Positions 43,038 to 62,546 of a stretch of DNA of 64,000 nucleotides are shown in pieces. Source of the stretch: an uncultured Halobacteriales archaeon (lineage in GTDB: Archaea; Thermoplasmatota; E2; JACPAO01; JAHFTW01). The stretch is taken from assembly GCA_964627625.1 (NCBI GenBank), contig CAZVJB010000002.1:92197-156196 (forward strand), given 5' to 3'. Position 1 is the first letter of the stretch, and each line of letters begins with the position of its first letter. The notes beneath the pieces were generated by a model. The model saw nothing but the letters and a program-made list of their open reading frames with translations. It was not told the DNA's origin and did not search any database. Made by a program: the position numbers and the translations under genes.

Positions 43038-43345
43038 ACGTCATTTCATGCCCTCCTGCGGGCCGAATCTGTTTTCCCGTGGCCTCAGGCACGGCGGCCG
43101 CAGATGACGCAGATTGCACAGATTTCCCCGCAGGGAATCTGCGAAATCTGCGGCTGCCGGCCGGGGGCTCGGCCTGGAAAAACGGGGCCAACCCGAAGGA
43201 GTTCTGAAACAGCCTCTAATGCCACGGCCACTCCGGTCATGCCCTTGCGCCTTGGGCGGACAAAGAATAAGCTCAAATGGGTCAACGGCTCGGGCCTTCT
43301 GTCGGGTGGGGGCCTCGTGGCTGCCTTTCCGATTGTTGGCACCTG

Positions 43346-43849: not shown

Positions 43850-43906
43850 CGACCGCAGGCTTAACGACGCGTCGCCCGTCGCCGCCATCGTGCACCGGAG
43901 TGACGC

Positions 43907-45712: not shown

Positions 45713-45792
45713 GTCGCTCAGCCATTCCAGCATCTGCCTGTCGGGCAGACAACCCCTTTAAGCCGCTCCAGACGTAAGAGGTCGGAGCCGAG

Positions 45793-48513
45793 ATGGCGCA
45801 AGTCGACCACACGATTGCCAATCTGTTGGGTGGACTCTCCATCGGGTGCAGTCGCCACGCCAAGGCCGTCGTCACCGCCGTGCTGCTCATCACGGTCGTT
45901 TTCGGGTACGGCGTCTCCACCATTACGACGAACGTCGACGTTGCCGATGTTTTGCCCCGTGGGAACTACAACACCGAGGCGGCGCACCAGCTGACGGAGA
46001 AGTTCCGTTCCACGTTTACTCAGCAGGTGACGCTGCAATTGCACATCGACGAAGGCGGGACACGATGGGCAACGGACAACGCGCAGCTCGTCTATCGTAA
46101 CGCAGGCGCCGGCCAGGCGGAACCAGGCGACGCCTTCGGTCCCGGCCAGACGGCGCCGTCGCCGTACAACATCACCGACGAGGTCTATGTCCGCGCGACG
46201 GCAGAACTCGTCGACTTCATGCAGACCCGCACCTCCTTCAGTCGCGCCATTTCCATTTCCAACATCTATTCGCTCCTCAATTGGACGGTTGCTGGCGGCG
46301 ACGGTTCTGGTGCATTGCCGGCTGCAGCGGAATCAGCCTTCGCCCTCCCCGGTTACCTGACGCAGACAGAGGCGGCGCGGTATCAACTCGTCGACCAAAC
46401 GGTCAAGGCCGCCGTCTTGGACACCGTGGATGCCATCTCGAGCCCGTCGTGGGACCATGCTGCCGCTCTTTTCATGCCCGCGTCAGACAACGATATTCCA
46501 AGCAGGGAACTTGGCGAGCAGATGCTGGCGGCGCGGGACGCCTTCGTCGAAGCGGTTCGCACCGGCAAGACGGAGTTCACGGTCTTCGGGCCGGACAATC
46601 CGCCGCTGTTTACCGTCGATTTGCCGATTGCCAACGCCCACTCCAGCGCATTGGTGCGCGAGGACACCCTCCGCCTCATGCCTCTGATTGCGGCCTTCAT
46701 CATAGCCTGCCTCTACGTCGCCTTCCGCAACGTGCGCGCCATTACGGTCAGTTTTACGACCCTCGTCCTCGGCGTCGTCTGGAGTTACGGCACGATGGGC
46801 TTCATGGGAATCCCCCTCAACACGCTCAACATGACGATTGTGCCGCTTGTTATGGGCATCGGCATCGACTACTCAATCCACATCATCAACGAATTCGTCG
46901 AGCACAAGTCAAAGGGCCACAGCGACATCGAGGCGTTTCGCCAGGCCGGTCGCCGCAGCGGTGTTGCCATGCTGATTGCTACCGCCACGACGATTGGGGG
47001 TTTAGTGGTCCTAATCTTCAGCCCGAGCCTTCTGATCGCAGAACTTGGCGTCATCGCCGTCGTCGCCCTCTCCGTCCTCTACCTCTTGGCCATTACGTTC
47101 ATCCCGGCTGCTATCACGGTGCTAGGAGGATCGGAGCGCATGGGAGCCAAGTTCACGCGCAGCCGCTTAATGCCCGCGGCGGCCAGGGCGGTCTACCGGT
47201 CGCGCTGGTTCCTTGTAGTGCCCTTGATTATCATCGTGAGCGCGGTAGCCTATCCGCTTGCCAATTCGGTTGGCAACGAGGCTTTCGGCGACCCCGGACG
47301 CAATTACCCGGCAAACGACCCGATTCGGCGCGAACATGAACAGGGTTTGCGCTGGTTTTACGGCACCCCGGATTCGGACGAGAAGGCCAACATCCTCGCC
47401 TTCAGCGGGAAAGACATCCTGACACCCGAAGCCATTGCCTACTACCGCGCTGTGGAGGCGAACCTCAAGCAGGAGCGGCGCGTCATTCCCGACACGCTGC
47501 GAACCGTGCCTTTCTTCATTGAAACTTGGCTCACGGTCAAAGGCGGTCCAACGGGCGCCTTGCAGACGGTCGTCATCGAGGAGGTCCTGGGCATCCCTTT
47601 CCCGATTCCCGTGCCAGCCCGCCAAACCGTTGACCCGTTCCCGGACACCGAGGAGGAGATCGTGCGGGAGGTCAATGCGATGTTTGCCAGCCCGATGCGC
47701 GAACTTTCATCCATCATCCTGAATCACCCGACGAACGACATGGCCGCCATGACGTTTAGCGTGCGGGCGGCAAGTTATGACGAGGCCGAGCAAGTCTGGA
47801 ACCAGGTCTGGAATGCAGTCGGGAAGGCCAATGCGACCTTTGGCGGAAAGCCGCCGGGGGACCTCCGTGTCGCGTTCATCGGAAACACGGCAACGAACTA
47901 CCTCTTCATCGCCGAGGAATTACCCTGGCTGACCTACATGGCAATTGTCAATAACATCACGCTGGCTGTTCTCGTGCTTGTGATGACGCGCAGCATCAAG
48001 ATGACCCTCGTCGTCTCGCTCCTCTCGGTCCTAACGACGCTTTGGTGGCTGGCACTTCTGCCGAGTTTCGGCATCGGCATGGCAATCACTCTCACGCTGC
48101 CGTTTGCGTTCATTGTCGCAATCGGTACCGACTACGGCGTGCATTTTATGTGGAATATTCGGCAGACCGGCGATGCTCGGGAGGTTTTCGGCAGCACGGG
48201 CAAAGCGGTGCTCTTCTCCGCTATCACGACGACGGGGGCCTTCACGTTCTTCATCTTCGTGCAAAACGTAGCGGTCAGTCGGACGATGCTCGCAACCACG
48301 CTGGCCTTCATCGTGATCTTCATCGTGACCCTGCTTACTGTTCCCGTATTCTTTCGCGTTGGGCCCCGCAAGCGCGGCGCGATTGACGGTTCTGGCGCGA
48401 GGCCGTTCCAGGTGCGCGCCGGCCCAGAATCCCCGGGATGGCCGGCAAAGTCAACCCGCGGCAAGGAAACGCCGTCGCCGCGTCCAAGGAGCCGCGCAAA
48501 ACCCCCCAAATGA
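45793..48513 (+). CDS. MMPL/RND-superfamily exporter (two 6-TM bundles with large extracytoplasmic loops; SSD-like)
   Basis: 906 aa. TM clusters around aa 20-40, 290-450, 470-490 and 740-890. It has the RND/MMPL (HpnN-like) duplicated-topology hallmarks. Confidence 0.8.
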   Translation: MAQVDHTIANLLGGLSIGCSRHAKAVVTAVLLITVVFGYGVSTITTNVDVADVLPRGNYNTEAAHQLTEKFRSTFTQQVTLQLHIDEGGTRWATDNAQLVYRNAGAGQAEPGDAFGPGQTAPSPYNITDEVYVRATAELVDFMQTRTSFSRAISISNIYSLLNWTVAGGDGSGALPAAAESAFALPGYLTQTEAARYQLVDQTVKAAVLDTVDAISSPSWDHAAALFMPASDNDIPSRELGEQMLAARDAFVEAVRTGKTEFTVFGPDNPPLFTVDLPIANAHSSALVREDTLRLMPLIAAFIIACLYVAFRNVRAITVSFTTLVLGVVWSYGTMGFMGIPLNTLNMTIVPLVMGIGIDYSIHIINEFVEHKSKGHSDIEAFRQAGRRSGVAMLIATATTIGGLVVLIFSPSLLIAELGVIAVVALSVLYLLAITFIPAAITVLGGSERMGAKFTRSRLMPAAARAVYRSRWFLVVPLIIIVSAVAYPLANSVGNEAFGDPGRNYPANDPIRREHEQGLRWFYGTPDSDEKANILAFSGKDILTPEAIAYYRAVEANLKQERRVIPDTLRTVPFFIETWLTVKGGPTGALQTVVIEEVLGIPFPIPVPARQTVDPFPDTEEEIVREVNAMFASPMRELSSIILNHPTNDMAAMTFSVRAASYDEAEQVWNQVWNAVGKANATFGGKPPGDLRVAFIGNTATNYLFIAEELPWLTYMAIVNNITLAVLVLVMTRSIKMTLVVSLLSVLTTLWWLALLPSFGIGMAITLTLPFAFIVAIGTDYGVHFMWNIRQTGDAREVFGSTGKAVLFSAITTTGAFTFFIFVQNVAVSRTMLATTLAFIVIFIVTLLTVPVFFRVGPRKRGAIDGSGARPFQVRAGPESPGWPAKSTRGKETPSPRPRSRAKPPK

Positions 48514-48879
48514 CGGGTTGCCGCAAAAAGAAGGGGCTTGTAGCGGATGCCATTGCGTGCGCCAATGCTTGGCGTCGAAGCGGCGGATTTCGATTGCGCA
48601 CGCTGCGGCGCGACATGGACGGCCGCCGCCGCGATTCGACCTGGCGGGCACGCACTAGTCGACATGGCCTGCCCGTCGTGCGGCCTTATCCTTGGAGGCG
48701 TGCGTTGTGACGACGGCGTCCCGACCATGGAACGCCGAGCCCCCAACGCAGAAAACCTCGGAATCCTTCGCGTCTACGCCGGCGACAAAGGCCTGGCGAT
48801 GCTTGGCCGACCGCGATGAAGCCGGTTCGGCCCCCCTTGATGCGCCCGGAAGGGCCCGGCCCCGCCTGGCCCACCCGGG

Positions 48880-49090
48880 CATCGGCGAATCCGACCGGTC
48901 TGACCTCGCACAGGGCTTCGCCCGTGCATCAGTAGCCACGGTCGGATTCGACCCAGCGGCCGGGCAAGCCCAGCCGCTGGGATTCCTCGGCTTCGCCATC
49001 GGCGAACCCGCCCGGGTCTGGACTGGCCGCGGGCGCTGCGCGACCCGACGGAGTAGCCCCGGTCGGATTCGACCGCCCGGCCTTGCAGGC
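48880..49090. repeat. Two degenerate ~105-nt tandem repeats in the MMPL / beta-helix intergenic region
   Basis: atcggcgaa(t/c)ccg(a/c)ccgg…gagtagcc(a/c)cggtcggattcgacc occurs twice. Each copy ends in a GGTCG-GATT-CGACC hairpin. Confidence 0.5.
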
Positions 49091-49151
49091 ATGCTCGACG
49101 GCAGGTTGGCGGCCGCGCCGTTTTCAGGGGCGGTGGAACCATTTGTCCCTT

Positions 49152-50774
49152 TCATCCGTGATGACTATGATGGCATGCGACCTGTTGGCCAAAGGCCGCG
49201 GCCGGCGGGGTGTTGTGTGCAGGACACGTCTCACCCTCCACTGGATTCCTTGTCAGCCACGGGTCAACGATGGCTTCCCCGTAAATGCTGCTGCCCGGTC
49301 CATCGTCCGACCCCCACCAATTCCAGCGCGCATCGACGGGAATCGTTGCAGCCGTGGGATTCCAATTGAATTGTGCCTGGTCAGTATTTACTAGGCCGTA
49401 GCGCGCATTGTCGACGAAGGTGTTGTTCCGGAAGACCGGCTTCTCTTGGCCGACCACGAAGGCGCCATCGACGAGGTTTCCCTCAAACGAGTTGCCCGAC
49501 ACCTCGGAGGTTCCAAGCGGACGACTGGAAAGTTGGCGCAGGATTGCGCCCTCCTCGTTGCCAACGAAGCGATTGTTGCGTATTCGAATCGGGTCTCCTT
49601 GTTGGTACAGACCGAACGAGGTCTGGCCTACAATCTCGTTTCCTTCAATCAAGACGGGAGCGTCCGTCGTCCAGATGCCGGCCGTGTTGTTCGCGATGAG
49701 GTTACCAAGGATATCGGCCTTGACGCCAGGCCCGCAATAGGGGTCGCCGCCATCGACCATGATTGCCATGCCAAATGGAGCGGCCCCGTTGTTCCCAACG
49801 ATTTGGTTTTCCTGGATGAGTACGTACGTTTCGGGACCACAGGCAAACCAACCTGCGGCGTTGTCCTCAACGATGTTCGCGTGAAACGTGGCCTGGCTTC
49901 CAGCCCAGGCCAGGAATGCAAAGTAGTTGCCGGACAGCGTGTTCCCTTCGAAGGCGGCCTGCGAATTGTGGAGTTTGGCGCCGAACGTGAAGCCGTGCAA
50001 AACGTTGCTCGCGAAGCTAAGTGCCTGGCTGTCGCGGACGATAACTGCCGCATCATCATCTATCGGAATCACGGATTTCTGCAGCGGACAGTTGACAAGG
50101 CCATCGCACGTGGTGTCCCGTAGGTCACGCAACATCGGGGAACGACTGGCGTTGACGAGCTCGTCACGAACCGCGTAACCCAAACGCGACGGAGGAGAAA
50201 CGACATTAGAGGTAAGGTCTATGGCGGTAGACGTCTCGACGACGACACCATAGGGATACCCATCCACACTGTTCGACTCGAAGTGCACGTTGGCGGCGTT
50301 CCACGTTCGCAGCCCAACCCATCCGGGGGGCATGACGAATGGGGCGCCGGGCTCGAGCCAATTGTAGGAATCGTCCGCTGTGGTGCCGACGTGGGTGCAT
50401 ATCCCCCAGGTGGGGAAGTTACAGATCACGAAGGGCGGCAAGTAAGCAGGCTGGAGCAACTCGTTGCCGCGCACCACGACATGGGCGTCCGTGTTGGCGA
50501 TGAATATGCCGGCGGCTGCACCCCCCACGATGGCCCAGTTCTGGATGATGTAGGGGTCAGTGGGCGTCCCAGTTCCGGACAGGACGCCGTTGGCCGCATT
50601 GAAATCCATGTTGGACAGGATTGTGATGGGAGCGCGCGGCGTCTTGGAAGGCACATCGGGCAAGATGGGTGCTTCATCGTCCGGGAGCGGAAGCTGCCCA
50701 ACGGCGGGCCCGGAGACGACGGTGGCCATGATTGCCAAGCCTGCCAGGATAGATGCGCGAATTTGAATCGTCAT
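49152..50774 (-). CDS. Secreted right-handed parallel beta-helix repeat protein (NosD / pectate-lyase-like fold)
   Basis: Signal MTIQIRASILAGLAIMATVVSGPAVG. Repeated N/G/V-rich ~22-aa PbH1-like turns (…NIVEDNAAGW…, …NQIVGNNGAAPFGMAIMV…, …GNLIANNTAGIWT…, …GNEIVGQTSFGLY…). Confidence 0.7.
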   Translation of the reverse strand: MTIQIRASILAGLAIMATVVSGPAVGQLPLPDDEAPILPDVPSKTPRAPITILSNMDFNAANGVLSGTGTPTDPYIIQNWAIVGGAAAGIFIANTDAHVVVRGNELLQPAYLPPFVICNFPTWGICTHVGTTADDSYNWLEPGAPFVMPPGWVGLRTWNAANVHFESNSVDGYPYGVVVETSTAIDLTSNVVSPPSRLGYAVRDELVNASRSPMLRDLRDTTCDGLVNCPLQKSVIPIDDDAAVIVRDSQALSFASNVLHGFTFGAKLHNSQAAFEGNTLSGNYFAFLAWAGSQATFHANIVEDNAAGWFACGPETYVLIQENQIVGNNGAAPFGMAIMVDGGDPYCGPGVKADILGNLIANNTAGIWTTDAPVLIEGNEIVGQTSFGLYQQGDPIRIRNNRFVGNEEGAILRQLSSRPLGTSEVSGNSFEGNLVDGAFVVGQEKPVFRNNTFVDNARYGLVNTDQAQFNWNPTAATIPVDARWNWWGSDDGPGSSIYGEAIVDPWLTRNPVEGETCPAHNTPPAAAFGQQVACHHSHHG

Positions 50775-50880
50775 TACGGTGGACTCCTGTTGTACGCCAT
50801 GGGCCGACGGGAAATCCGGCGACTTGGCGGGCAGGTGTCATCGCCGCTGTTTCGAGTTAAGGATTTGCCGGCGTCCTTGA

Positions 50881-50894
50881 GGTGATTTCATAAC
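50881..50894. promoter_or_regulatory. GGTGATTTCATAAC motif about 200 nt upstream of the Kelch/TSP3/wHTH gene; near-identical to a motif at 57649
   Basis: Seen directly: 50881 GGTGATTTCATAAC and 57649 CGTGATTTTTCATAAAC. Confidence 0.35.
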
Positions 50895-51097
50895 TTCCAG
50901 ACAGATGTGCTGGAGTGAATGTATTACCCAATGACTATTAGAACTCGAATCTGGTGTTTTGAGTGCCGGCGGGTCCGGGGTGGTCGCATCGGGGAATTGC
51001 ATGCATCGTGCCAGAGAGGCCGATGCTGGGCAGGGCGTTCCATGGCTACACCATCAACGGGCGCGCTAAGGGCGGTTTCCGGAGACTCCTGTTGACC

Positions 51098-53488
51098 ATG
51101 CGTCTGGGGATGGGAATCGCGATTGCCGGGCTCCTTGGAACCCTTCTAATCCCAATCGGCGAGGCAGCAATCTCATCGGATGCCCGCGTATCAACCGACG
51201 GCTACCTCCCAAGCGGGCGTCATGGGGCGGGCGCGGTGTGGGATTCCGTGCGGCATGTCGTCTACATATTCGGCGGCTTCGACGAGAAGCTCCAAACGGA
51301 CACTGCCGAAATCCTGGAGTTTGACCCGGCATCCTCGGCACGCAACGCGACACTAATCGGCCATCTTCCAGGACCCATGTCGGGCCTTGTCGCCGTCTGG
51401 ACGGGCGAGGTTGCGTACATCGTCGGAGGCGACTCGGATGCAATCATGCAATTCGATCCCGCCACCGCCACGCTCACGGTCCTATCGGTCCGCTTACCCC
51501 ATACCGTGGACTCCCCCGCCGCGGTCTGGACGGGCCGAGCGATGTATCTTTTCGGCGGCACCTCCGATTCCTCCACGCCCGTCGGCACCATCATGCGCTT
51601 CGAGCCCGACGAGATGACTGCCAGCACCCTTGAGGAGACTCTACCTCGCGCTGGGCACTACGCAGCCGTCTGGTCCGGCGATGGCACCGCATACATCCTC
51701 GGCGGAGGCGGAAACGAGATTTACGCATTTACTCCCAACCACGCGCCCTCCCTGGTTCAGCTGAATGTCACCTTGCCGCTGGCCATCGATGCAGCCGGCG
51801 CCGTTTGGGACGGTACAGCCGTGCTCGTCTTCGGTGGTCGGGAGGCTGACGGCAGCCCCAATGGAGGGACGGCTCTCGACACAGTAATACGGTTTGATCC
51901 ACAAGCGCCTCCGTCACAGAGTGTGTCGTATTGGCCGAACCTGCCCGTTCCTGGCACCGAACTTCGAGGCGTCCCCCGCCCCTGCGACAGCGCGTTTCTT
52001 TTGGGTGGCAAATGGCAGACCGCCTCTCTCTATGACGCCATATCGAGGTACGGCCCGCCGCAGTCGACTCCCGGGGATTGCCTCGGGCCCAAGAAATCAG
52101 ACCCGCAATCAGACCCGCAATCCGCGTCCGCAAAGGTATTGCAAGCGGATTTCACGTGGCATTCCAAACCGGTCAAGTGCGGTCCTCGCTCCGTATCGTT
52201 TACTGACACATCAACCCCCGGCGATGCCCCAATCGTCTCATGGGGGTGGGACTTTGGTGACGGCTCGCAATCCGCCGAACAAAACCCCCAACACACCTAC
52301 GCCAATTCGGGAACCTACACCGTCCGCGAAACCGTCACGGATTCCGCGGGAAGCACATCGACGTACGAGACGACGGTCTACGCGCCTGCAAACAAGGAAT
52401 GCATTGAGAAAACTTCACCCTCGTCGACGCAGCATGGGGCGCGGCCGCCGCGCGATGGCAACGGCGAAGCTTCGGGAGACGCCGATGGGGACGGTATCTC
52501 AGATTCGGATGATGATTGCCCCTTCACTGCCGACCCCGAACAGTTAGACGCTGATGGCGATGGCATCGGAGACGTATGCGACGACGACGCGGACAACGAC
52601 GGCATCCGCAACGTGGTCGACAATTGTCCAGTGGTTCCCAACCGGGCCCAAACCGATTTTGATGCCGACGGCTTGGGGGATGTCTGCGACCCCGACGCTG
52701 ATGGCGATACCGTCGCTAATGAAGTGGATAATTGCCTCCAGATGGCCAACGCGGACCAACTGGACAGCGATGCGAACGGTATCGGCGATTCCTGTGATTT
52801 CAAGCAGTCCAACCTATCAAACGAAGCAAGCCAACCTCGCCCAATTTCGAGGGCACGGGGGGTAGCGTCTGTCGGTCGCGAAACGTCCGCGAACGGAGCC
52901 ATTCCCCTGGCAATCGGCATCGCCATCCTCTTGGCCATTATCGTTGCCGCCACCTGTTGGCGAATCGCGCAAGCCAACGCCAGGGGGCCAACAGTCTCCA
53001 AGACGAAGACGCCTCCCGTGGTGTTGCTCTTTAGCCGCATTGGCGACGCCGACCTTCTCAAGCACCCAATTCGCAAACACCTCGTCCAAATCATCCATGA
53101 AAAGCCAGGCATCACGTTCATCGAACTGGTTGCGGCCTCGGGCAAGGGCCGCGGCACAATCGAGCACCACTTGGCGACCCTACAGGCCGGCAGAATCATT
53201 CAAGCTGAACGATCCGGTCGATTCCTGTGTTACTATGCGCGGCCATTGAAGCCGCACGACGCCGAGCGAACCGTGGCGCTACGGTCGGCGTTGGCGCAAG
53301 CCGTGGCTCGTCTGGCCATCCGGCGTCCTGGGACGACGATGTACGAAGCATCCCGCCAACTCGGCGCGGACTACACGGCCATCAAGTACCACGCACGGCG
53401 CCTGGCCGCGGCGGGAATCATCTCGGTAACGCCCGACAATCGCCTGCACGGCGGAGCATGGCACATTCACAACGACACCCGAACGTAG
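51098..53488 (+). CDS. Membrane-spanning fusion: extracellular Kelch propeller, PKD and TSP3 repeats; one TM helix; cytoplasmic tandem winged-helix DNA-binding domains
   Basis: Signal MRLGMGIAIAGLLGTLLIPIGEAA. Kelch-like blades (VYIFGGFD…, AYIVGGDSD…, MYLFGGTSD…, AYILGGGGN…, VLVFGGREADG…). PKD WGWDFGDGSQS…HTYANSGTYTVRETVTD. TSP3 DADGDGISDSDDDCPFTADPEQLDADGDGIGDVCDDDADNDGIRNVVDNCPVVPNRAQTDFDADGLGDVCDPDADGDTVANEVDNC…. TM IPLAIGIAILLAIIVAATCW. Then …HPIRKHLVQIIHEKPGITFIELVAASGKGRGTIEHHLATLQAGRII… and …TMYEASRQLGADYTAIKYHARRLAAAGIISV…, the two wHTH units shared with 59444-59998. The start may be the upstream MLGRAF at 51023. Confidence 0.75.
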   Translation: MRLGMGIAIAGLLGTLLIPIGEAAISSDARVSTDGYLPSGRHGAGAVWDSVRHVVYIFGGFDEKLQTDTAEILEFDPASSARNATLIGHLPGPMSGLVAVWTGEVAYIVGGDSDAIMQFDPATATLTVLSVRLPHTVDSPAAVWTGRAMYLFGGTSDSSTPVGTIMRFEPDEMTASTLEETLPRAGHYAAVWSGDGTAYILGGGGNEIYAFTPNHAPSLVQLNVTLPLAIDAAGAVWDGTAVLVFGGREADGSPNGGTALDTVIRFDPQAPPSQSVSYWPNLPVPGTELRGVPRPCDSAFLLGGKWQTASLYDAISRYGPPQSTPGDCLGPKKSDPQSDPQSASAKVLQADFTWHSKPVKCGPRSVSFTDTSTPGDAPIVSWGWDFGDGSQSAEQNPQHTYANSGTYTVRETVTDSAGSTSTYETTVYAPANKECIEKTSPSSTQHGARPPRDGNGEASGDADGDGISDSDDDCPFTADPEQLDADGDGIGDVCDDDADNDGIRNVVDNCPVVPNRAQTDFDADGLGDVCDPDADGDTVANEVDNCLQMANADQLDSDANGIGDSCDFKQSNLSNEASQPRPISRARGVASVGRETSANGAIPLAIGIAILLAIIVAATCWRIAQANARGPTVSKTKTPPVVLLFSRIGDADLLKHPIRKHLVQIIHEKPGITFIELVAASGKGRGTIEHHLATLQAGRIIQAERSGRFLCYYARPLKPHDAERTVALRSALAQAVARLAIRRPGTTMYEASRQLGADYTAIKYHARRLAAAGIISVTPDNRLHGGAWHIHNDTRT

Positions 53489-53527
53489 TACCCAATCGCC
53501 TTTAGATACCCCTCCCGGTGGAGTATT

Positions 53528-56500
53528 TTGGTTGGCGTACGCCGACCGGTGTTCATCGTGGGAAACCCAACGCAATCGTCGCCAGCCTACACGCAATACT
53601 CGCTCGCCGTCGTCGCGGCCTTCGTGGGCGTCGCTGCCATCGCGCTTGTCCTGTCGCACAACGCCTCGGCCGGCGGGACCGGGTACCAGATTGCAACGGA
53701 TTTGACAAACGATCACACCGACAGCATGCAGAACGCCGAGCTGATTCGTCTCGGCGCGTCGTCAGACGCAACAAACATTTACTTCTGGCTCAAAGTCGGT
53801 GCCGACTCACCCACTTATGACCCAACGCCCTCCGGCCCCAAAGATTTGATGCTATCCGTGGACATGGTCACGCCAGCGAATGTGCCGCAATATGTCAGGG
53901 AAATGTATACGATCTGGGGCTCATGGTTCCAGACCTATACCGGCTTGGCAGTCGGCAGTAGCTGGGAGTACGGGAATAGTAATCAATACCAAAACACCCA
54001 AGTCAGCTGGGTCTGCAACGAAGCGAAATTCACGATTGCTCGCAACCAGTTCACGGGCAGCCCGCCAGCAGATGGCACCGTCTTCACGCGCCTGATGGCA
54101 ACGGCCCAACCAGGCTTCACAACGCCCGCCGTCGTGCTAGACACCATGGGCAGCAGGCCACCCCCCGCACCCCAACCCGCACCTCCCCCCCGGAACCGGC
54201 ACGTGGGAGGTCGGGCAGAACGGCCAGATGTGGCAGAATGCGCCCGTGATAGGCACCGCCACTGCAATCGGAGACAACATGGTCCGAATCACTTGGACTG
54301 CCACGGACAATGGGGCGCAGCCAACGACCGTGTACAGGATTTATCGCAGCGTAGCCGGCGGCGCCTTCTCGCTGTTTACGACGGTGGGCGCGGCAGCCAC
54401 GTCCTACGACGACGTGAACCTGGCCTCAGGCACCTCGTATGCGTACAAGGTCGCGGCCGTCAATTGCCCACAACTGCCCGCACAGGCGTCGGCCCCGCCA
54501 GCAGGCGAGCCCGCCTACGTGGGTGGGGAGAGCCTGCGCAGCGCCGCCGTGTCCGTCACCCCGGACTTCAATCCGATGGCCCCGACAAGTTTTGCCGTTG
54601 GTGAGCCCACAGCAACAACGCTGACACTAACGTGGACCGCAGCCAGCGCGGATTGCCCGGCCGCCACATGCACGCCAGCCGGAACTGGCGCCAGCGGAGT
54701 GCAGGGCTACGCCATGTACCGCGGCGCCAGCGGAGCCGAAACGTTCGTCGCCAACCTGCCCAGCAGCTCCGCCTGCAGCACGACGCCCTGCACCTACACG
54801 GACATCGACCTAACCCTCGGCGCGACCTACTGCTACTACCTCAAGGCCTACGACGGCTACGCTAGCGGGCCGAATACGAGTCCCGCCACATCCGAATCGT
54901 GCGGCGTTCCAGCAACTGCCCCAGCCGCCGTTACCGACACGTTCGTCGTGGACGAAGATATATTGTTCTCCAGTTCCGCTTGCGCCGCTGGCATGCCAGC
55001 CGCGACGGGCGGACCCTACAAAGGCGTCCTATGCAACGACCAGGACATGGCCAACGACGCAATCGAAGGCATCCTCATCACAAGCCCGGCCCAAACAAGT
55101 CCCGGCGGCTCATTTGCATGGGACGCGGACAACAAAGGCGGCTTTACGTACAGGGCTAAAACGGACTACTGCGGTGGCACCGGAGACAGCTTCCAGTACC
55201 AACTCAAGGACGTAACCACCAACACTCTGCTGAATACGGTCACCGTCCAACTCAACATCGCCTGCACCCCGGTTGCCGTAGCGGATCTATTTGCGGCCAC
55301 CATCAATACGGAGTTTTCGTCGCCGCCATGCCCGGCCAACACGCCCTCCGCGACAGGCGGCACCTACAAGGGTGTTCTGTGCAATGACCAAGATACCGCC
55401 AACCACGCGATTCTGGCCCTCCTGGTATCCTCTCCGGTAAACACGAGTCCTGGCGGTTCATTCGCGTGGAACGCCGACAACAAGGGCGGCTTTACGTACC
55501 AAGCCGCAACCGACTACTGCGGCGTTGCCGGAGACAGTTTCCAGTACCGATTGAAGGACGTAACCGCGAACGCCTTCCTGAATACCGTCACCGTGCAAAT
55601 CGACATCAGCTGCACCCCCAACTTGCCACCAGTTGCCGCCTGCAGCATCGTAACGGCGGCACCCTACTGGCCAGACGAAGTCGTGGCTTTCAGCTCCACG
55701 GGTTCATCTGACTCTGATGGCACAATCACTGCTTGGGCCTGGACGTTCACGGGTGGCTCGTCGCCGGACACGACCATCGCGTCCCCGACGGCCAGTTGGT
55801 CCTCGTCGGGCCCGTTCGCGGTCACGCTAACCGTGACGGACGACGACGATGCACCGAGTGCACCGGCATCATGCGGCATCACGATCACGAATACCGCCCC
55901 GACGGGGAATCCGAATGAGTACGTCGCCATCAAGGATGGCTTGTTGGACACCCTCAATCAAGGCCGTCCCAGCGTCTTGGCCAATGACGTGGATACGGAA
56001 GGCAACCTCAACGCCGTGCAGTTCCCCCTCTGCGCGCCGCTGCCTGCCGGGACGGGAACCATTGACGACTTCACGTACGTGGGGCCGCAGGCGGGCCACT
56101 TCGTCTACACTCCCCCTGCTGGCTTCGTTGGGGACACATCGTTTGGCTACAAGCCGAAGGACGCCTTGGGCCTGGTTGGCGCGTCCTGCGTCACGGTGAA
56201 TATCCACGTGCAAGTCAACCGCTCCCCCGTATCGGCGTTCTCCGCAGACCGGTCCACGACGCGGGTTGGCGAGCCCGTCGTCTTCGGTGACGCTTCCAGC
56301 GATCCCGACGAGGGCGATGCCGTCGTGGCTTGGGCCTGGAGCTTCGGCGACGGCGGATCCGGCACGACGTCGAGTCCCATCCACATCTTTGGCACCACCG
56401 GCTCCTTCCAGGCATGCTTGACGGCCACGGACACGTGGGGCAAGATTGGGCCGAAGGCCTGCCGCACCATCACCGTGATTGCGGCGACTGCAGGCACATC

Positions 56501-57308
56501 CGCACCACCCGCGCCCCCGAGCCAGCCGCCGAGCGACCCGGCCGACCCGGATGCATCCAAGCCGCCGCTCGGCGTGGACGCGGGAGCTGACCAAACCGTA
56601 ACCGAATCGGCGATCACCAAGCTGCAAGCAACCGTCACGGGCGGGTCGCAAACAGTGGCGTGGGTGCAAACGTATGGGCCGCGCGTGGACTTGACGCAAA
56701 CAGGCACGTCGGCGTCGTTCGTCGCCCCCGCTTTAACGGGATCGCGCATCGTCTTGTACTTCGAACTTCACGCCCAAGACGGCGAACGCGTCGGCGCGGA
56801 TGGCGTCATGATTGAAGTCGAATCCAATGAGCCAACGCCGGCCGCACAAGTCGCGGGCGACGCAACGGTGGCGCCTGGCGCCGTGGCCATGCTGGATGGT
56901 ACGTCATCCTCTGGCGGAAACGGCAACTCCTTGACGTACAAGTGGACGCAATGGGAAGGCCCAGCCGTCACGCTCGTCGGTGCCGACACGCCGATGGCCA
57001 CCTTCACCGCGCCCGACGAAGCGGCCACGCTGCGCTTCGCCCTGGAAGTAAGTGACGGCCACTCATCGAGCCTCGCCATCCAGACCATCGTGGTCGATGC
57101 CTCGGCGGCACTCGGCGGCGAACCGGAGCCGCTTCCATCCGCCTCCGTCCCGACCGTGGATCCCGATGGCTCGCCGGCCACGGCGACGCAGGCGCCAAGC
57201 GGATCCAACGTGGCCGCTATCGCCGCCGCGGCCGTAGTCGCGTTGCTAGGCGTCGGGGGGGCTTTCATCGGCCTGCGCCATCTCCGGGCAAGGCCGGAAC
57301 GTACCTAA
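53528..57308 (+). pseudogene. Giant (~1260 aa) surface protein (signal/TM, FN3, tandem Ig-like, PKD and VCBS-like domains, C-terminal TM anchor), split by a frameshift in a C7 homopolymer near 54185-54191
   Basis: Track ORFs 53528-54604 and 54228-57308 overlap. Upstream of 54228 the second frame reads …LPPGTGTWEVGQNGQMWQNAP… with no Met. Removing one C from the ccccccc run fuses …PQPAPPP to GTGTWEVGQ…. Downstream are FN3-like domains (…TTVYRIYRS…SYAYKVAAVN), two ~100-aa tandem repeats (GGSFAW(D/N)ADNKGGFTY…CG…GDSFQY(Q/R)LKDVT…), PKD motifs (WAWTFTGG…, WAWSFGDGGSG…), and C-terminal AAIAAAAVVALLGVGGAFIGL followed by RHLRARPERT. Confidence 0.55.
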
Positions 57309-57647
57309 CCCTCGCCGGACCGGGCCGTCCAGGAAATGACCCGCCGCTAGACCCAATCCGCCCCCGGGGGGATGCGTTATTCCGACCAACCCACCGACCG
57401 ACCACCCCCGGGGGACCCCAGCGCCGGCAGGGAATACCCCAATATTTTCTGAGAGGGCAACTAGAGGTTTTTGGCAAGAGTTACAAGCCTGAGTAGACGT
57501 GAGCGGCGTATCCCGCAGTTCGGGCTGCCTTTGGCCTTCCGAGCCAAGGGTGCTGCTCGCGGGGCGGCCAGGAATGTGACCAAAAATGCAACGCTATCTT
57601 GACCAAAGAGGGAGCAAACTAGCGGGGCGCGTACCAGTGCGATGTGA

Positions 57648-57699
57648 CGTGATTTTTCATAAACCCGCATTCGTGATTTTCTGCAAATCGTGAATCGTG
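57648..57699. promoter_or_regulatory. Three CGTGA(T/A)T repeats (57648, 57672, 57689) immediately upstream of the peptide/receptor/HTH cassette
   Basis: aCGTGATTTTTCATAAAC…tTCGTGATTTTCTGCAAATCGTGAATCGTGtcg. Related to ttCCGTGATTTCCGTGAATTCCGTGG at 32277-32302. Confidence 0.35.
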
Positions 57700-57728
57700 T
57701 CGCTTGCGCCTTGGCGCACGTGAAACCC

Positions 57729-57923
57729 ATGAAAACCACACTTGCAATCGGACTCGTACTGACCGCCACCCTCCTGATGACTGCCCCTGTTGCGTCCGCC
57801 GATGGTGACGACTTGCCCACGGTTGATAGCGTCACCGCGTGGGCAAGCACCTGCGTGGGCATCTGGCCGGGCCACTTCCCCCCGGTCTTCGTGGATGTTG
57901 GCTCCTGTCTTGATGTAACGTAG
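57729..57923 (+). CDS. Small secreted Cys-containing peptide (65 aa), hypothetical
   Basis: MKTTLAIGLVLTATLLMTAPVASA signal, then a 40-aa mature part with two Cys (…STCVGIWPGHFPPVFVDVGSCLDVT). ATG confirmed at 57729. It lies 52 nt upstream of the receptor-like gene. Confidence 0.35.
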   Translation: MKTTLAIGLVLTATLLMTAPVASADGDDLPTVDSVTAWASTCVGIWPGHFPPVFVDVGSCLDVT

Positions 57924-57974
57924 TTCCTTATCCGGAATACGCCTCCCGTCCAATCGGGCCTTGCCCTCTCTTCC

Positions 57975-59447
57975 ATGAAGCCCCTGCCCTTGCTCTTGGC
58001 CGTTCTGCTTTTCATGGCTGCAAGTGCAGCCGCCGCAAGCGATTTCACGTTCGATTCTGCCGCAGGGCACGGCCCGCTCCAATTGACACCGCAGGGTTTC
58101 GCGCTGCTGCATACGACGGCCAGCGTCGATTGGACCCTGACGGCCACTTCGATGCGAATCAAGGTCGTGGATGACCGCGAAGACAACGCCATCCCGGACC
58201 CAGCCAATCCGGACGACAGCCTGGTTTCGGTGTTCAACCGGACGACGACGTACCACGATTTCGCGGCGGCGACGCTGCATTGGGTTTCCCTTTCGAATCC
58301 GGTCTCAATCATCCAGGGTCCCGGCATCCTTGCCGAAAACGTCAGCGGTCAACTTGCCCTGACCACGGTGTCGCCAAGCAGCATCGAACAGTCGCACTAC
58401 GTTATGGCCACTCCAGTCGGTGCTCCCGAACTGCAATACGATGTGCTCGTACCCGCGTCGCTGCGAGTCAAAGCGACCGCCGTGGCGGACATCCTTGGCA
58501 ACGTCACTCTGTACTCGTGGAGCAACGACATCCAAGTGCGGCATTCCGGCGGAGCCTTCGAGCTGCGCACCGGCAAGTACACCGACATGCCGGTCACGCA
58601 AGGAAGCCTGCGATCGCGGCACTACGTGCACGCGTTTCTTGAACTGCGCACCGCCAGGGCCAACCTCGCCATTCCGGCGGCGGCCTTCTACGCCGAAGGC
58701 CTGCAAGTCGAAAGCCATGGTATCCTGCAATTCTCCAACCTGACCGGAGAACTCCCCGGCCCTACGGGTTTGGCGACGGCCACAGGGGGAATCGTGACCG
58801 CCTCGGCGGGGACGTTTGCCCTGTCACCGACTGGAACCGGCATCGGCGGCACTGTACTCATTGCACCTGAAGCCGTCGCTGGCACAACTGCGCGGCTTCC
58901 AGGCACCGCGCTTCCTGGCGGGGTATGGCTTGCGTTGAGCGGCATGCTGTTTGTTGGCGTGGTCGCCGCGCCAAGCGTCCATGGTCGCCGGGTCCGCCAA
59001 CGGGAGGCCGCCACATGGCTTGGGTTTAGGGACGACCGGGCAACAGCGTATAGCAATTGGGCCGCACGCGCCGACAACCAGGGCTGGAACCACGCCGCAG
59101 CCCTGCTGTTCTGGCGGGCTACTCGAAACAGCCCCACGAGTCCGGAGTTGCGATGCGAGTACGGCGTCCTCCTGCGGCAAAGCGGCCGTCCCAAACGGGC
59201 CTTGCGCCAGCACGTCCTCGTCGGGGAAGTCCTGGCGCGTTCGTTTGATCCAGGCTGCGGCGCCCTCAATGCCTACAGCGCTAGCCTGTGTTGCGCCGCC
59301 CTTGGGAAGGATGGGGCGGCGCTTGAGTGGCTGCAAGCCGCAATCGAGGCTGATCCGGGTTTCACTGAAACGGCCCTTAAGGAGCCCCGACTGCGACGCC
59401 TCAGAGCACACCCCGATTATCCCGCCATCGTCGGGGCCATCGCATGA
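57975..59447 (+). CDS. Type-I membrane receptor-like protein: signal peptide, ~310-aa ectodomain, one TM, cytoplasmic helical (TPR-like) domain
   Basis: Signal MKPLPLLLAVLLFMAASAAAAS. TM VWLALSGMLFVGVVAAP followed by HGRRVRQRE. Cytoplasmic …YSNWAARADNQGWNHAAALLFWRATRNSP…LQAAIEADPGF… is helical-repeat-like. Confidence 0.6.
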   Translation: MKPLPLLLAVLLFMAASAAAASDFTFDSAAGHGPLQLTPQGFALLHTTASVDWTLTATSMRIKVVDDREDNAIPDPANPDDSLVSVFNRTTTYHDFAAATLHWVSLSNPVSIIQGPGILAENVSGQLALTTVSPSSIEQSHYVMATPVGAPELQYDVLVPASLRVKATAVADILGNVTLYSWSNDIQVRHSGGAFELRTGKYTDMPVTQGSLRSRHYVHAFLELRTARANLAIPAAAFYAEGLQVESHGILQFSNLTGELPGPTGLATATGGIVTASAGTFALSPTGTGIGGTVLIAPEAVAGTTARLPGTALPGGVWLALSGMLFVGVVAAPSVHGRRVRQREAATWLGFRDDRATAYSNWAARADNQGWNHAAALLFWRATRNSPTSPELRCEYGVLLRQSGRPKRALRQHVLVGEVLARSFDPGCGALNAYSASLCCAALGKDGAALEWLQAAIEADPGFTETALKEPRLRRLRAHPDYPAIVGAIA

Positions 59448-59998
59448 CGTCGCGGTCGCGTGACGGCGATGAGGCGCGCGACTTGTTTGCAGTTCCAACC
59501 CGGCCCCGCGCCGCGCACAGAATCGTTGGCGTCGATGGCCTTACTGAAATCCAGCGGCAGGCCTATGATTTCGTCGTGCTCAATCCCGGCGTGACCATCC
59601 AGGAAACGGCCGTTCACATGCGAAGCAGCCACTCCACGGCCACGTACCACTTGTTGGCCTTGACGCGCCTCGGACTCGTGGAGGCCGTCCGGGCGGGACG
59701 CCAGCTTCGCCACTTTCCCTTGCCCCGCGGCTACTCACGTGAACTCTACCTGAAAGTCTTGAACCGCGATCCCAAGCGGGCCGCCTTGGTGCATTTCCTG
59801 CGCGACGCGCCCGTGGCGGGCATGACCATCAACCACATTGCCGGGAAAACGGGGCTCCCTTTCGGCTTCGTGAAGCGCACGCTTGAGCAATTGGAACGAA
59901 TGCACTTCGTCCATCTACGGCGACGCCACTACCGGTACCGCGTCGAGGTGACGCGCGAATTGCTTGCCGGTCGCGCCGACGACCTTTTTCCCGCGTAG
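59444..59998 (+). CDS. Tandem wHTH transcription regulator, overlapping the stop of the receptor-like gene (ATGA)
   Basis: …EIQRQAYDFVVLNPGVTIQETAVHMRSSHSTATYHLLALTRLGLVEAV… and …RAALVHFLRDAPVAGMTINHIAGKTGLPFGFVKRTLEQLERMHFVHL…. Same family as 2882-3688, 61928-62485 and the tail of 51098-53488. Confidence 0.65.
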   Translation: MTSRSRDGDEARDLFAVPTRPRAAHRIVGVDGLTEIQRQAYDFVVLNPGVTIQETAVHMRSSHSTATYHLLALTRLGLVEAVRAGRQLRHFPLPRGYSRELYLKVLNRDPKRAALVHFLRDAPVAGMTINHIAGKTGLPFGFVKRTLEQLERMHFVHLRRRHYRYRVEVTRELLAGRADDLFPA

Positions 59999-60087
59999 GT
60001 TTCATCCTATCGCATGCAAGATGCTCGCACGATTTTGCATAAGGCGCCAGGCCGAGCGGCACATGGGGCCTTGCGCGGGCACCGTGT

Positions 60088-60330
60088 TCACGTGAAGTGC
60101 CACGGCACCAAGATGCCCCCGCAGTTTTCCGTGGCAAAGCACCGCATGTCGGTGCATTCGGCACGCAGTTCCACGTATAACTCGCTCCATTCCTGCACCA
60201 AGACGCGACGTTCGCCACACAGGGTGCATTGCACGGCAATCGGCGGCTGGTCGTTTGATTCGCCAGCCTCACTTGCCGTGGTCACGGACCACGGTTTTTC
60301 CTTGACTGAAACAATGTCGTACGCCACAAT
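60088..60330 (-). CDS. Possible small zinc-ribbon protein (GTG start), very tentative
   Basis: The C-terminal ~70 aa of minus ORF 60088-60630 are protein-like (…PIAVQCTLCGERRVLVQEWSELYVELRAECTDMRCFATENCGG…). The upstream part is low-complexity. Confidence 0.2.
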   Translation of the reverse strand: MVAYDIVSVKEKPWSVTTASEAGESNDQPPIAVQCTLCGERRVLVQEWSELYVELRAECTDMRCFATENCGGILVPWHFT

Positions 60331-61053
60331 GTTAACTATCTTGTGCCGGCAATGTAAGCCGGGCTGCGGCTTTCTGAAAAACACGGACCAGCCTCCAGGA
60401 CGAAAGCCGGCCCCGCGCGGTACCCCCCACAAATTCCTGTCGCGCGGGCGTGGCCGACGTCGGATGGCATCTGCCGCTGCGAAGGACCGGTCCCCTGGGC
60501 TGATTCTGACCAGGATTCCTTCGCCTTGTTTCCTCCGTTGCGTATCCCGCCGCGCCGTTTCGTCCTGGTCGGCCGTCGTGCCGGGCCCGCCGCACTTGAC
60601 TCCTCGGGGCCCGCGTAGTCCCGCCTGCATCGTGCGTCGCGTCCACCGGCCTTATATGGAAATCTGGAGTCGGCGCCGCCAACGCTAGGCTTGGCATCGA
60701 TTCGAAGTCCCGTATCCACAAGCAATGGTTTGTGCACCAAAGAGTGATACTTAGCCCCGTATTCCTCTTAGTGCTAAACAAAATATTTTGGGTGGGGGAG
60801 GTTCGGAACAGGGCTTCGGGGGGTTCCGCTTTTTTCTTGCGGACTAGACGTAGCGGACGGCTGTGAGGCCCCACTAGTGTGGGGCCATACGGACGTACGC
60901 GAAGGTATAGGCCAGCAAGGGAAAGAGAGTGGAAACACGCGTGTGCGCGGGTTTCAGAAACTTCACAAACAAAAGGAATCTTGTTTACGCAGTCGAAGAC
61001 CACGGAATCATTGGCCAAACCAATTTCTTTCTCCAGTTGGACGGGGGTGATTC

Positions 61054-61737
61054 TCATAGTAGCCTCCTTTGGACCAGTAGTGGTTCGGGTGGCATAGGTG
61101 TTTCCACTTCCTTCCGTGGATCCGGGAAGGCCGGGTCCAGTCGGTCGGGTCGTCCGTCCCAGCGTACGGGTATGAATCGGTTGTCGATGTGTCGCAGCTG
61201 CGTCGGTTTCGACCAGCCGGGCACCCAGCAGGCCATCATGTAGCCCGCGCCGTCGGTTTGCCCGTTGGCTGTGAAGCCCGGACGAGCCGGGAGGGGGTAA
61301 GCGGCGGCGGCAGGGAAAATGCGCCAGAACCGCTCGTAACGCGTCTGACCCTCAAAGAAGTTCAACCGCAAGAGAAACGCCAGGAACCATCCAGGGTTGG
61401 CTTGGCATTTGATTCTGGTCTGGACGAGTCGCGGCGACGAGTTGCGGTAAGCTGCTGGGAGGTGTGCCATAGTCCGCCCTCCATGGCCCGCCCCCCATAC
61501 GCCGCCATCAGGAGACACGGCCCGATGGGGCGGGCTGATGGCACGGACTATTGGCATGGCTGCGCCAATGACTTGGCCATCGACGTGGCCAACGAGTTGC
61601 GGTAGTCCGTTGGCAGCCGTTATGCGGCATTTGGGCAGGTGTGCCATAGGCCGCCCTCCATGGCCCGCCCCCCATACGCCGCCATCAGGAGAAACCACTG
61701 TTGGGCGCGCAAGGGTGGCGGCCATCATTCCCACCAC
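61054..61737 (-). CDS. Hypothetical protein whose N-terminal half is encoded by an imperfect direct DNA repeat (VSPDGGVWGAGHGGR(P/T)MAHLP twice); it may instead be a non-coding repeat element
   Basis: The C-terminal half is protein-like (…NFFEGQTRYERFWRIFPAAAAYPLPARPGF…HIDNRFIPVRWDGRPDRL…). The N-terminal half coincides with the 58-bp direct repeats at 61461 and 61638. Confidence 0.3.
   Translation of the reverse strand: MVGMMAATLARPTVVSPDGGVWGAGHGGRPMAHLPKCRITAANGLPQLVGHVDGQVIGAAMPIVRAISPPHRAVSPDGGVWGAGHGGRTMAHLPAAYRNSSPRLVQTRIKCQANPGWFLAFLLRLNFFEGQTRYERFWRIFPAAAAYPLPARPGFTANGQTDGAGYMMACWVPGWSKPTQLRHIDNRFIPVRWDGRPDRLDPAFPDPRKEVETPMPPEPLLVQRRLL
61461..61695. repeat. 58-bp imperfect direct repeat, two copies 177 bp apart
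   Basis: ggtgtgccatag(t/g)ccgccctccatggcccgccccccatacgccgccatcaggaga(c/a)ac appears at 61461 and 61638, each preceded by cgagttgcggta. Confidence 0.6.
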
Positions 61738-61927
61738 CTGGCCAGCGGAACGGTCAGGGCCGCAAGAACTTCCTCGGCGAAGGCTTGCATGTAGGAGACG
61801 GGCATGTAGTGCGCCTCTTCGTGGTCCAACAAGTAGTCCGTCGCGTACATGCGCACGAGGCCGGGCTCGTGCGGGCCAGGGCCGTGCTTTGCGGCGAAGG
61901 CGTTTGCGACCAACTTCGGGTTCGGCC

Positions 61928-62485: not shown

Positions 62486-62546
62486 TCACTCGTGCTCGCC
62501 GTCGGCCGGCCGCAATGCGGACAGTGGCCGTCACTTTCGGCGGGCA

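What the first reader, a model, noticed from the sequence alone, without database searches (positions are those of the whole stretch)
54181..54231. Giant surface-protein gene split by a +/-1 frameshift inside a C7 homopolymer
ORFs 53528-54604 and 54228-57308 are clearly one gene: a signal-anchor N-terminus, then FN3, Ig-like, PKD and VCBS domains, then a C-terminal TM anchor. Deleting one C from the ccccccc run at about 54185-54191 fuses …PQPAPPP with GTGTWEVGQNGQMWQ…. The cause could be a sequencing or assembly homopolymer error, a genuine pseudogene, or slipped-strand phase variation of a surface protein.
Basis: seen in the sequence. Interest (0 to 1): 0.5.

Follow-up and report, generated by a model that had tools for sequence, protein, structure and literature searches.

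The report
Surface-protein gene broken by one extra C
A 1,259-residue cell-surface protein gene of an uncultured Thermoplasmatota archaeon is split in two by a single extra base in a short run of Cs; the extra base is also in an independent assembly of the raw reads, so this is most likely an ordinary, recent gene-inactivating mutation.

Summary
A C7 run lies at 54185-54191. ORFs 53528-54604 and 54228-57308 are offset by +1, and removing one C gives one 1,259-aa ORF.

The two ORFs are one gene. All 11 long homologues aligned are uninterrupted across the junction. The closest (1,290 aa) aligns to the repaired protein in a single 56.5%-identical stretch, residues 69-1231.

Homology places the extra base only within 54148-54191. 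That interval also holds a C6 run (54161-54166), so C7 is the likeliest site but not proven.

A Logan assembly of run SRR6868923 is 100% identical over 18 kb and also shows C7. This rules out an error made by one assembler.

There are no signs of designed switching or recoding:
- G/C runs are depleted in the window.
- Three homologues with DNA have at most C5 at this linker.
- The following CGG codon is common.
- There is no downstream RNA structure.

Best reading: a real, recent null allele or nascent pseudogene (about 0.6). Rivals are read-level error (about 0.2), phase variation (about 0.1) and recoding (about 0.04). Read counts across the run would settle it. Interest is low.

The parts
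53528..54190 (+). 5' part of the gene (221 codons, upstream frame). It encodes an N-terminal signal anchor (about 53597-53653), a conserved family-specific N-terminal beta-sandwich domain and a Pro-rich linker.
   Evidence: ORF list. Aligns to residues 42-189 of P0001 by tblastn. The domain is conserved in 16 representatives. Coding-like GC by codon position, 0.56/0.52/0.71.
54148..54191 (+). Interval within which the one surplus base must lie.
   Evidence: The invariant Asp-Thr of the N-domain (GAC ACC, 54142-54147) must be read in the upstream frame. The conserved P-G-T/S-G-x-W motif (from 54189) must be read in the downstream frame. Codon log-odds for all deletion positions in this interval are similar, 10.4-15.7 bits.
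54161..54166 (+). C6 run, the alternative site of the indel.
   Evidence: Sequence. Deleting a C here gives ...DTMGSRPPPHPNPHLPPGTGTW..., scoring 12.65 against 10.58 bits for the C7 solution, so the two cannot be told apart.
54185..54191 (+). C7 run (read CCC CCC C|GG in the upstream frame). It is the most probable site of the +1C insertion; the ancestral state would be CCT CCC CCC GGA = P P P G.
   Evidence: The same seven C appear in Logan contig L005, assembled from SRR6868923.
54191..54604 (+). Out-of-frame tail of the upstream ORF (138 Arg-rich codons). Not real coding sequence.
   Evidence: GC by codon position is 0.78/0.60/0.59 in this frame, against 0.60/0.59/0.77 in the downstream frame over the same bases. 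No homologue matches it.
54192..57308 (+). 3' part of the gene (1,038 codons plus stop, downstream frame). It encodes two FN3-like domains (first about 54252-54464), tandem Big_9/cadherin-like modules (direct repeat 54981-55270 / 55329-55618; Big_9 about 55950-56198), PKD domains (about 56217-56474), K319L-like PKD domains (about 56853-57086), and a C-terminal TM anchor (about 57207-57275) with a basic tail.
   Evidence: Pfam and NCBIfam hits. tblastn of P0001 residues 209-449 matches 54192-54905. One HSP to P0010. Repeat family.
54138..54140 (+). TAG that closes the downstream frame on its 5' side and sets the upstream limit of the overlap of the two frames.
   Evidence: Translation.

Best explanation
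The two ORFs are one gene for a membrane-anchored, multi-domain surface protein. Its parts in order are a signal anchor, a family-specific N-domain, two FN3 domains, Ig/cadherin-like modules, PKD domains and a C-terminal TM anchor. The organism is an uncultured Thermoplasmatota archaeon.

The Pro-rich linker between the N-domain and the first FN3 is encoded by runs of C. One of these runs, most likely CCT CCC CCC GGA (C6 to C7), gained one C by polymerase slippage during replication. The allele is really present in the sampled population.

As written, translation yields only the signal anchor plus N-domain followed by 138 nonsense codons. The remaining 1,038 codons have no signal peptide of their own, so the surface protein is not made. 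Everything else in the 3.8-kb gene is intact, so the lesion is recent: a segregating null allele or nascent pseudogene of a dispensable, fast-evolving surface protein.

Shown: one gene, the position interval, and the presence of C7 in two assemblies. Inferred: in-vivo origin, loss of function and recency.
For: Evidence that it is one gene:
- P0001 (707 aa) aligns at 37% identity across the junction, and tblastn shows its two halves in two window frames.
- The N-domain family has 16 representatives among 1.84 billion proteins, and the 11 long ones aligned (707-1,290 aa) are all continuous through the P-G-T/S-G-x-W-T-V-G motif.
- P0010 (1,290 aa) gives one HSP covering fused residues 69-1231 at 56.5% identity.
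- Codon-position GC and the codon log-odds track switch from the upstream to the downstream frame between 54120 and 54210.
- AlphaFold2 of the repaired residues 45-345 gives a confident model: pLDDT 87.2, pTM 0.85, and pLDDT 93 immediately after the linker.

Evidence that the allele is real:
- Three Logan contigs assembled from SRR6868923 (L003, L004, L005) match window 43096-48968 and 49045-61503 at 100% identity with no gaps.
- L005 crosses the site and shows C7.
- The deposited NCBI contig (197,997 nt) carries the same split. A 1,009-aa product starting at 54279 is on record for it, and none of the four upstream-ORF start variants looked up is on record.

Evidence that the lesion is recent: there is no other stop or shift in 1,259 codons.

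Evidence for a slippage signature: the permitted 44-nt interval is 30% C6/C7 run.

A rough codon-usage screen showed no other same-strand frame switch without a gap among the large genes, and the G8 run at 36554 is in frame. So the record is not riddled with homopolymer errors.
Against: - The deposited contig and the Logan contigs probably derive from the same reads. Their agreement excludes an assembler-specific error but not a systematic read-level error or very low coverage.
- I could not see reads, platform or depth.
- No same-species sequence from another sample was found, so fixation or heterogeneity of the allele is unknown.
- A perfectly intact gene apart from one homopolymer indel is also what a sequencing artefact or a reversible switch would look like.
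Confidence: 0.6

Rival explanations
1. Read-level or consensus artefact. The organism really has C6 (an intact gene), and an extra C entered the consensus through systematic homopolymer error or low coverage in the read set shared by both assemblies.
For: The lesion is a single-base excess in a homopolymer, in an otherwise flawless 3.8-kb gene. Both assemblies probably come from the same run.
Against: Two different assemblies agree base for base over 18 kb, including the run. Zero mismatches in k-mer contigs argue for accurate short reads (my inference), for which a consensus indel at C7 is uncommon. The other 36 G/C runs of 6 or more, including a G8 inside a gene, are not associated with a visible frame switch. 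The contig is 198 kb long, which suggests adequate coverage (inference).
Confidence: 0.2
2. Phase variation. The poly-C tract is a contingency locus whose length flips between C6 (ON) and C7 (OFF) by slipped-strand mispairing, switching a surface protein on and off in the population. The assembly caught the OFF state.
For: The anatomy fits: a G/C homopolymer in the 5' 17% of a surface-protein gene, a +/-1 change toggles the frame, and the gene is otherwise intact. Homopolymer-mediated reversible inactivation of a surface protein is documented, for example inlA A7/A6 in Listeria (PMC2831843).
Against: - The tract is only 7 nt, at or below the usual hypermutable length for G/C tracts (general knowledge).
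- G/C runs are depleted, not enriched, in this window: 7 against 16.5 +/- 4.3 for runs of 7 or more, and 37 against 57 +/- 8 for runs of 6 or more.
- Three homologues with DNA encode the same linker with interrupted Pro codons (longest run C5) or lack the linker.
- The Logan contig runs straight through the site without a break.
- PMC2831843 found poly(C)/poly(G) tracts generally under-represented and not 5'-biased in prokaryotes, including 18 archaea.
- The run is explained simply as Pro-Pro-Pro in a 64% GC genome where CCC is the commonest Pro codon.
Confidence: 0.1
3. Recoding. The full-length protein is still made from C7 DNA, either by +1 ribosomal frameshifting (P-site tRNA-Pro slipping CCC to CCC on CCC-CCC-C, helped by poly-Pro stalling) or by RNA-polymerase slippage that drops one C from the transcript.
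For: CCC-C is a known +1-prone sequence for tRNA-Pro (general knowledge, not tested here). The required shift is +1, and the site follows three Pro codons.
Against: - The A-site codon CGG is common, 20% of Arg codons in this window, so there is no 'hungry' codon or stop.
- The 99 nt downstream fold no better than shuffles, z = -0.08.
- The arrangement is not conserved: all homologues are in one frame.
- Transcriptional slippage normally needs longer A/T runs (general knowledge).
- At best a percent-level leak is expected.
Confidence: 0.04
4. Two genuine separate genes: a short secreted N-domain protein and a separate 1,009-1,026-aa protein.
For: Gene callers emit a downstream product starting at 54279.
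Against: The downstream product lacks any signal sequence, although it is built from extracellular domains and a C-terminal anchor. The upstream ORF's last 138 codons are non-coding in composition and match nothing. In all 11 long homologues aligned, the N-domain is part of the same protein as the FN3 and later domains.
Confidence: 0.01

Closest known systems
Frameshift pseudogenes / null alleles created by single-base slippage in short homopolymers (for example Listeria monocytogenes inlA A7 to A6; Orsi et al. 2010, PMC2831843)
   Same: A 7-nt homopolymer lies inside the 5' part of a surface-protein gene. A one-base length change truncates the protein. The allele is found in a natural population and the gene is otherwise intact.
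   Different: This is poly-C, not poly-A; an archaeon, not a bacterial pathogen; an insertion rather than a deletion. No second allele has been observed, so reversibility is unknown.
Poly-G/C contingency loci of Campylobacter, Neisseria, Haemophilus and Helicobacter (slipped-strand phase variation)
   Same: A G/C tract within the reading frame of a surface-exposed protein, where a +/-1 change toggles expression.
   Different: The tract is shorter than typical hypermutable tracts. It is not conserved in homologues. G/C tracts are depleted in the surrounding 64 kb. No length heterogeneity was seen. There is no precedent that I know of in Thermoplasmatota (from memory).
Programmed +1 ribosomal frameshifting (prfB CUU-UGA-C; Ty1 CUU-AGG-C; tRNA-Pro slippage on CCC-C)
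   Same: The P-site codon can re-pair perfectly in the +1 frame (CCC-C), and the shift direction needed is +1.
   Different: There is no slow or stop A-site codon, no stimulatory structure and no conservation of the split arrangement.
Archaeal and bacterial multi-domain surface adhesin-like proteins built from FN3, PKD and Big/cadherin-like modules with a C-terminal membrane anchor
   Same: Domain content and order by Pfam/NCBIfam, an N-terminal signal anchor, and a C-terminal TM with a basic tail. Neighbouring genes encode similar PKD/TSP3/Kelch surface proteins.
   Different: The N-terminal about 170-residue domain matches no Pfam model and defines a very small family (16 representatives at 50% identity in 1.84 billion proteins). 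No PGF-CTERM or other sorting motif was recognised.

Membership tests
   11 long homologues are continuous across the junction. P0010 gives one HSP at 56.5% identity over fused residues 69-1231. P0001 halves fall in two window frames.
Single gene disrupted by a frameshift (pseudogene / null allele) | The lesion is in the DNA of the organism, not an artefact of one assembly | tested here: inconclusive
   The independent Logan assembly of SRR6868923 has the identical C7. It is probably built from the same reads as the deposited contig, and reads could not be inspected.
Single gene disrupted by a frameshift (pseudogene / null allele) | Further degenerative lesions (expected only in an old pseudogene) | tested here: not met
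   No other stop or shift in 1,259 codons. So if the lesion is real, it is recent.
Homopolymer phase-variable contingency locus | The repeat tract is placed so that a +/-1 change switches the reading frame of an expressed (usually surface) gene | tested here: met
   C7 lies at codons 220-222 of a surface-protein gene, and removing one C restores the frame.
Homopolymer phase-variable contingency locus | Observed tract-length polymorphism within a clone or population | not testable with these tools
   No read access. Only one sample carries these exact proteins. No C6 product was found in the protein searches, but those searches have limited sensitivity.
Homopolymer phase-variable contingency locus | Tracts are over-represented and/or conserved relative to expectation | tested here: not met
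   G/C runs of 7 or more: 7 against 16.5 +/- 4.3 expected. Runs of 6 or more: 37 against 57 +/- 8. Homologue DNAs have at most C5 at this linker.
Programmed +1 ribosomal frameshift | Slippery P-site codon whose tRNA can re-pair in the +1 frame | tested here: met
   The upstream frame reads CCT CCC CCC CGG, and CCC to CCC re-pairing in +1 is possible.
Programmed +1 ribosomal frameshift | Slowly decoded A-site codon (stop or rare codon) | tested here: not met
   CGG is the second most used Arg codon, 138 of 691 or 20%.
Programmed +1 ribosomal frameshift | The two-frame arrangement and shift site are conserved in orthologues | tested here: not met
   All homologues are single-frame, and the junction codons differ.
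Programmed +1 ribosomal frameshift | Stimulatory RNA element near the site | tested here: not met
   The 99 nt downstream give MFE -31.4 against a shuffle mean of -31.15, z = -0.08.
FN3/PKD/Big-domain surface protein | Significant matches to the extracellular domain models, plus secretion and anchoring signals | tested here: met
   [not shown]

The most novel reading that the evidence does not exclude
The poly-C tract is a working ON/OFF switch: homopolymer slipped-strand phase variation of a surface protein in an uncultivated Thermoplasmatota archaeon. I know of no precedent in this lineage (from memory). If true, archaea would use bacterial-style contingency loci to vary their cell surface, for instance against viruses.
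Probability: 0.08. Interest if true: 0.55.

Novelty: new member of a known kind. Interest (0 to 1): 0.13.

Why it matters
It matters mainly for annotation. The locus should be annotated as one frameshifted surface-protein gene (pseudogene or low-quality position), not as two proteins.

There is wider interest only if read data show C6/C7 heterogeneity on a single haplotype. That would be a candidate archaeal contingency locus. Otherwise this is one more example of surface-protein genes being lost through slippage in Pro-linker poly-C runs in a GC-rich genome.

Tried and rejected
- Related loci in species-representative genomes: a protein-pattern scan and a degenerate DNA pattern for PGTGTWEVGQNGQMWQ both found nothing.
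- The metagenome contig scan found only an unrelated FN3 match.
- Exact look-up of the 1,026-aa ORF B and of P0010 gave no record.
- The upstream ORF with four alternative starts is not on record.
- A literature search for SRR6868923 gave no papers.
- The third homologue search, using the N-domain plus junction only, returned nothing. It failed even to recover P0001, so I treat this as a limit of the word index, not as evidence. For the same reason, the absence of a C6 'ON' protein is weak evidence.
- I tried to pin the indel to C7 or C6 by codon log-odds. The difference is 2 bits, which is indecisive.
- A simple GC3 threshold to define genes was too noisy. I replaced it with a codon log-odds track.
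- I looked for other frameshifts as a sign of systematic homopolymer error. Candidate overlaps (6-1196 / 523-1527 minus strand; 33538-35883 / 35649-38447) look like adjacent genes with over-extended ORF starts, not shifts. This screen is rough.
- I considered an SD-like GGGAGG at 54204-54209 as a restart or frameshift stimulator. I rejected it: it lies downstream of the run, 18 nt from ATG 54228, and is simply the W-E-V codons, which are not conserved in homologues.

Full report
**Observation**

The window reads ...CCG CAC CTC CCC CCC GGA ACC..., with exactly seven C at 54185-54191. The second is offset by +1 from the first. Its frame is already open from a TAG at 54138-54140, so the two frames overlap between 54141 and 54604. 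Removing one C produces a single ORF of 1,259 codons reading ...DTMGSRPPPAPQPAPPPGTGTWEVGQNGQMWQ....

**One gene or two?**

Four independent lines say one.

1. A 707-aa homologue from a Logan metagenome contig (P0001) aligns at 37% identity across the junction. Its sequence ...DTLAGGPPLDQPPGTATWTVGANGFTWQ matches the repaired window sequence. By tblastn, its residues 42-189 hit 53663-54106 in one frame and residues 209-449 hit 54192-54905 in another.
2. An exhaustive HMM search with the N-terminal domain plus junction found only 16 representatives among 1.84 billion proteins. Nearly all are 700-1,360-aa proteins with the domain at their N-terminus. The 11 long ones I aligned (707-1,290 aa) are all uninterrupted through a conserved P-G-T/S-G-x-W-T-V-G-x-N-G-x-x-W-Q motif that straddles the break. 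They share the architecture of signal anchor, N-domain, two Cys-containing FN3 domains, variable Ig/PKD modules and a C-terminal TM anchor. The closest, P0010 (1,290 aa), aligns to the repaired protein in one HSP covering residues 69-1231 at 56.5% identity.
3. Past the run, the upstream ORF has non-coding GC by codon position (0.78/0.60/0.59), while the downstream frame over the same bases looks coding (0.60/0.59/0.77). A codon log-odds track flips frame between 54120 and 54210.

Pfam and NCBIfam give fn3, Big_9, Cadherin_5, PKD_4, K319L-like PKD and tandem-95 repeat. No model named VCBS was hit.

**Where exactly is the extra base?**

Homology fixes only an interval. The invariant D-T at 54142-54147 must be read in the upstream frame, and P-G-T-G-T-W from 54189 in the downstream frame. 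So the surplus base lies in 54148-54191.

That interval contains the C7 run and also a C6 run at 54161-54166. Deleting a C from either gives an acceptable Pro-rich linker of the same length. Codon log-odds differ by only 2 bits. The linker is variable in homologues.

C7 is the most likely site because it is the longest run, and the inferred ancestral CCT CCC CCC GGA = PPPG matches the conserved P-G. This is a likelihood, not a demonstration.

**Real or artefact?**

Exact-protein look-ups of neighbouring genes found three Logan contigs assembled from SRA run SRR6868923. They match window 43096-48968, 49045-55205 and 55197-61503 at 100% identity with no gaps. Contig L005 crosses the site and shows the same seven C. 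The same proteins are on record from an NCBI contig of 197,997 nt, evidently the source of the window. On that contig the downstream product was called from ATG 54279 (1,009 aa), and none of the four upstream-ORF start variants I looked up is on record.

So two different assemblies agree, which excludes an assembler-specific error. The two probably share the same reads, so a systematic read-level error is not excluded, and I could not inspect reads.

Three indirect arguments favour a real allele. First, perfect identity of k-mer contigs suggests accurate short reads. Second, the 198-kb contig suggests good depth. Both of these are inferences. Third, a rough codon-usage screen showed no other same-strand frame switch without a gap among the large genes, and the G8 run at 36554-36561 inside another surface-protein gene is in frame.

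**Is it a designed switch or a recoding site?**

The evidence is against both.

- G/C runs are depleted in the window relative to dinucleotide shuffles: 7 against 16.5 +/- 4.3 for runs of 7 or more, and 37 against 57 +/- 8 for runs of 6 or more.
- Three homologues with DNA encode this linker as GGA CCC CCG CTT GAC CAG CCA CCC GGC (L001), as ACG CCC CCA CCG GCC GGA (L006, a syntenic gene in GCA_040384205.1), or lack the Pro linker (L008). The longest run is C5.
- The run is what Pro-Pro-Pro looks like in a 64% GC genome where CCC is the commonest Pro codon.
- For +1 ribosomal frameshifting, the P-site CCC-C is slippery. But the A-site CGG is a common codon (20% of Arg), the downstream RNA folds no better than shuffles (z = -0.08), and the split is not conserved.
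- A survey of 99 prokaryotic genomes, including 18 archaea, found poly(C)/poly(G) tracts generally under-represented and not 5'-biased, unlike poly(A)/(T) (PMC2831843).

**Context**

The window is archaeal: it has an archaeal SRP RNA at 27920-28229. FtsZ places it among uncultured Thermoplasmatota, with the best named hits at 84-86% identity labelled 'Thermoplasmatota archaeon'.

The gene sits in a region rich in paralogous surface proteins with Kelch, PKD, TSP3, NosD/beta-helix and PQQ/FG-GAP domains. The upstream neighbour, a PKD/TSP3 protein, is also upstream of the homologues in L001 and L006. Redundant, fast-evolving surface genes of this kind are typical targets of loss.

**Verdict**

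This is one surface-protein gene carrying a single-base insertion in a poly-C run of its Pro linker.

| Explanation | Confidence |
|---|---|
| Genuine, recent null allele or nascent pseudogene in the sampled population | about 0.6 |
| Read-level error | about 0.2 |
| Phase variation | about 0.1 |
| Recoding | about 0.04 |
| Two real genes | about 0.01 |

The phenomenon is ordinary, so interest is low. The one test that matters is counting run lengths in the SRR6868923 reads.

Noticed in passing
[not shown]
   Followed up: partly
window 50963-53488 (+): The upstream neighbour combines an extracellular Kelch beta-propeller, PKD and thrombospondin type-3 repeats with a TM segment and a C-terminal winged-helix HTH (HVO_0163-type / HTH_24). 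It looks like a membrane-spanning one-component transcription regulator with a large surface sensor. Paralogues at 33538-35883, 35649-38447 and 38207-39883 have the extracellular part but no HTH hit.
   Followed up: partly
window 36554-36561 (+), inside ORF 35649-38447: The longest homopolymer in the window (G8) lies in the 5' part of another Kelch/PKD/TSP3 surface-protein gene, and the frame is intact on both sides. It is a useful internal control, and a second site to check for length variation in reads.
   Followed up: partly
window 54981-55270 and 55329-55618 (+): There is a tandem duplication of a 290-nt module (74% identity) encoding the Big_9/cadherin-like unit ...GGxYKGVLCNDQD...SPGGSFAW(D/N)ADNKGGFTY... 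The break between Logan contigs L005 and L003 (55197-55205) falls inside the first copy, presumably because of shared k-mers.
   Followed up: partly
window 15464-20950 (-): A 1,828-aa ORF with three Big_1 (bacterial Ig-like group 1) matches near its C-terminus and no other Pfam hit. It is the largest gene in the window.
   Followed up: no
window about 59900-63700: The codon-usage log-odds signal, trained on the window's large genes, is weak almost throughout this stretch, which holds only short overlapping ORFs. This could be small genes, foreign DNA with different codon usage, or non-coding sequence. A weak HTH-like tblastn match lies at 62192-62452 (-).
   Followed up: no
L006 (GCA_040384205.1, JAWVGZ010000025.1:350751-360200) and L001 (Logan SRR19019143): Homologues of the split gene keep a PKD/TSP3 surface-protein gene immediately upstream. 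L006 also has a DAO-family oxidoreductase gene upstream; the window's own DAO gene (28749-29939) is about 24 kb away. This suggests conserved pairing with the PKD/TSP3 neighbour among Thermoplasmatota MAGs.
   Followed up: partly
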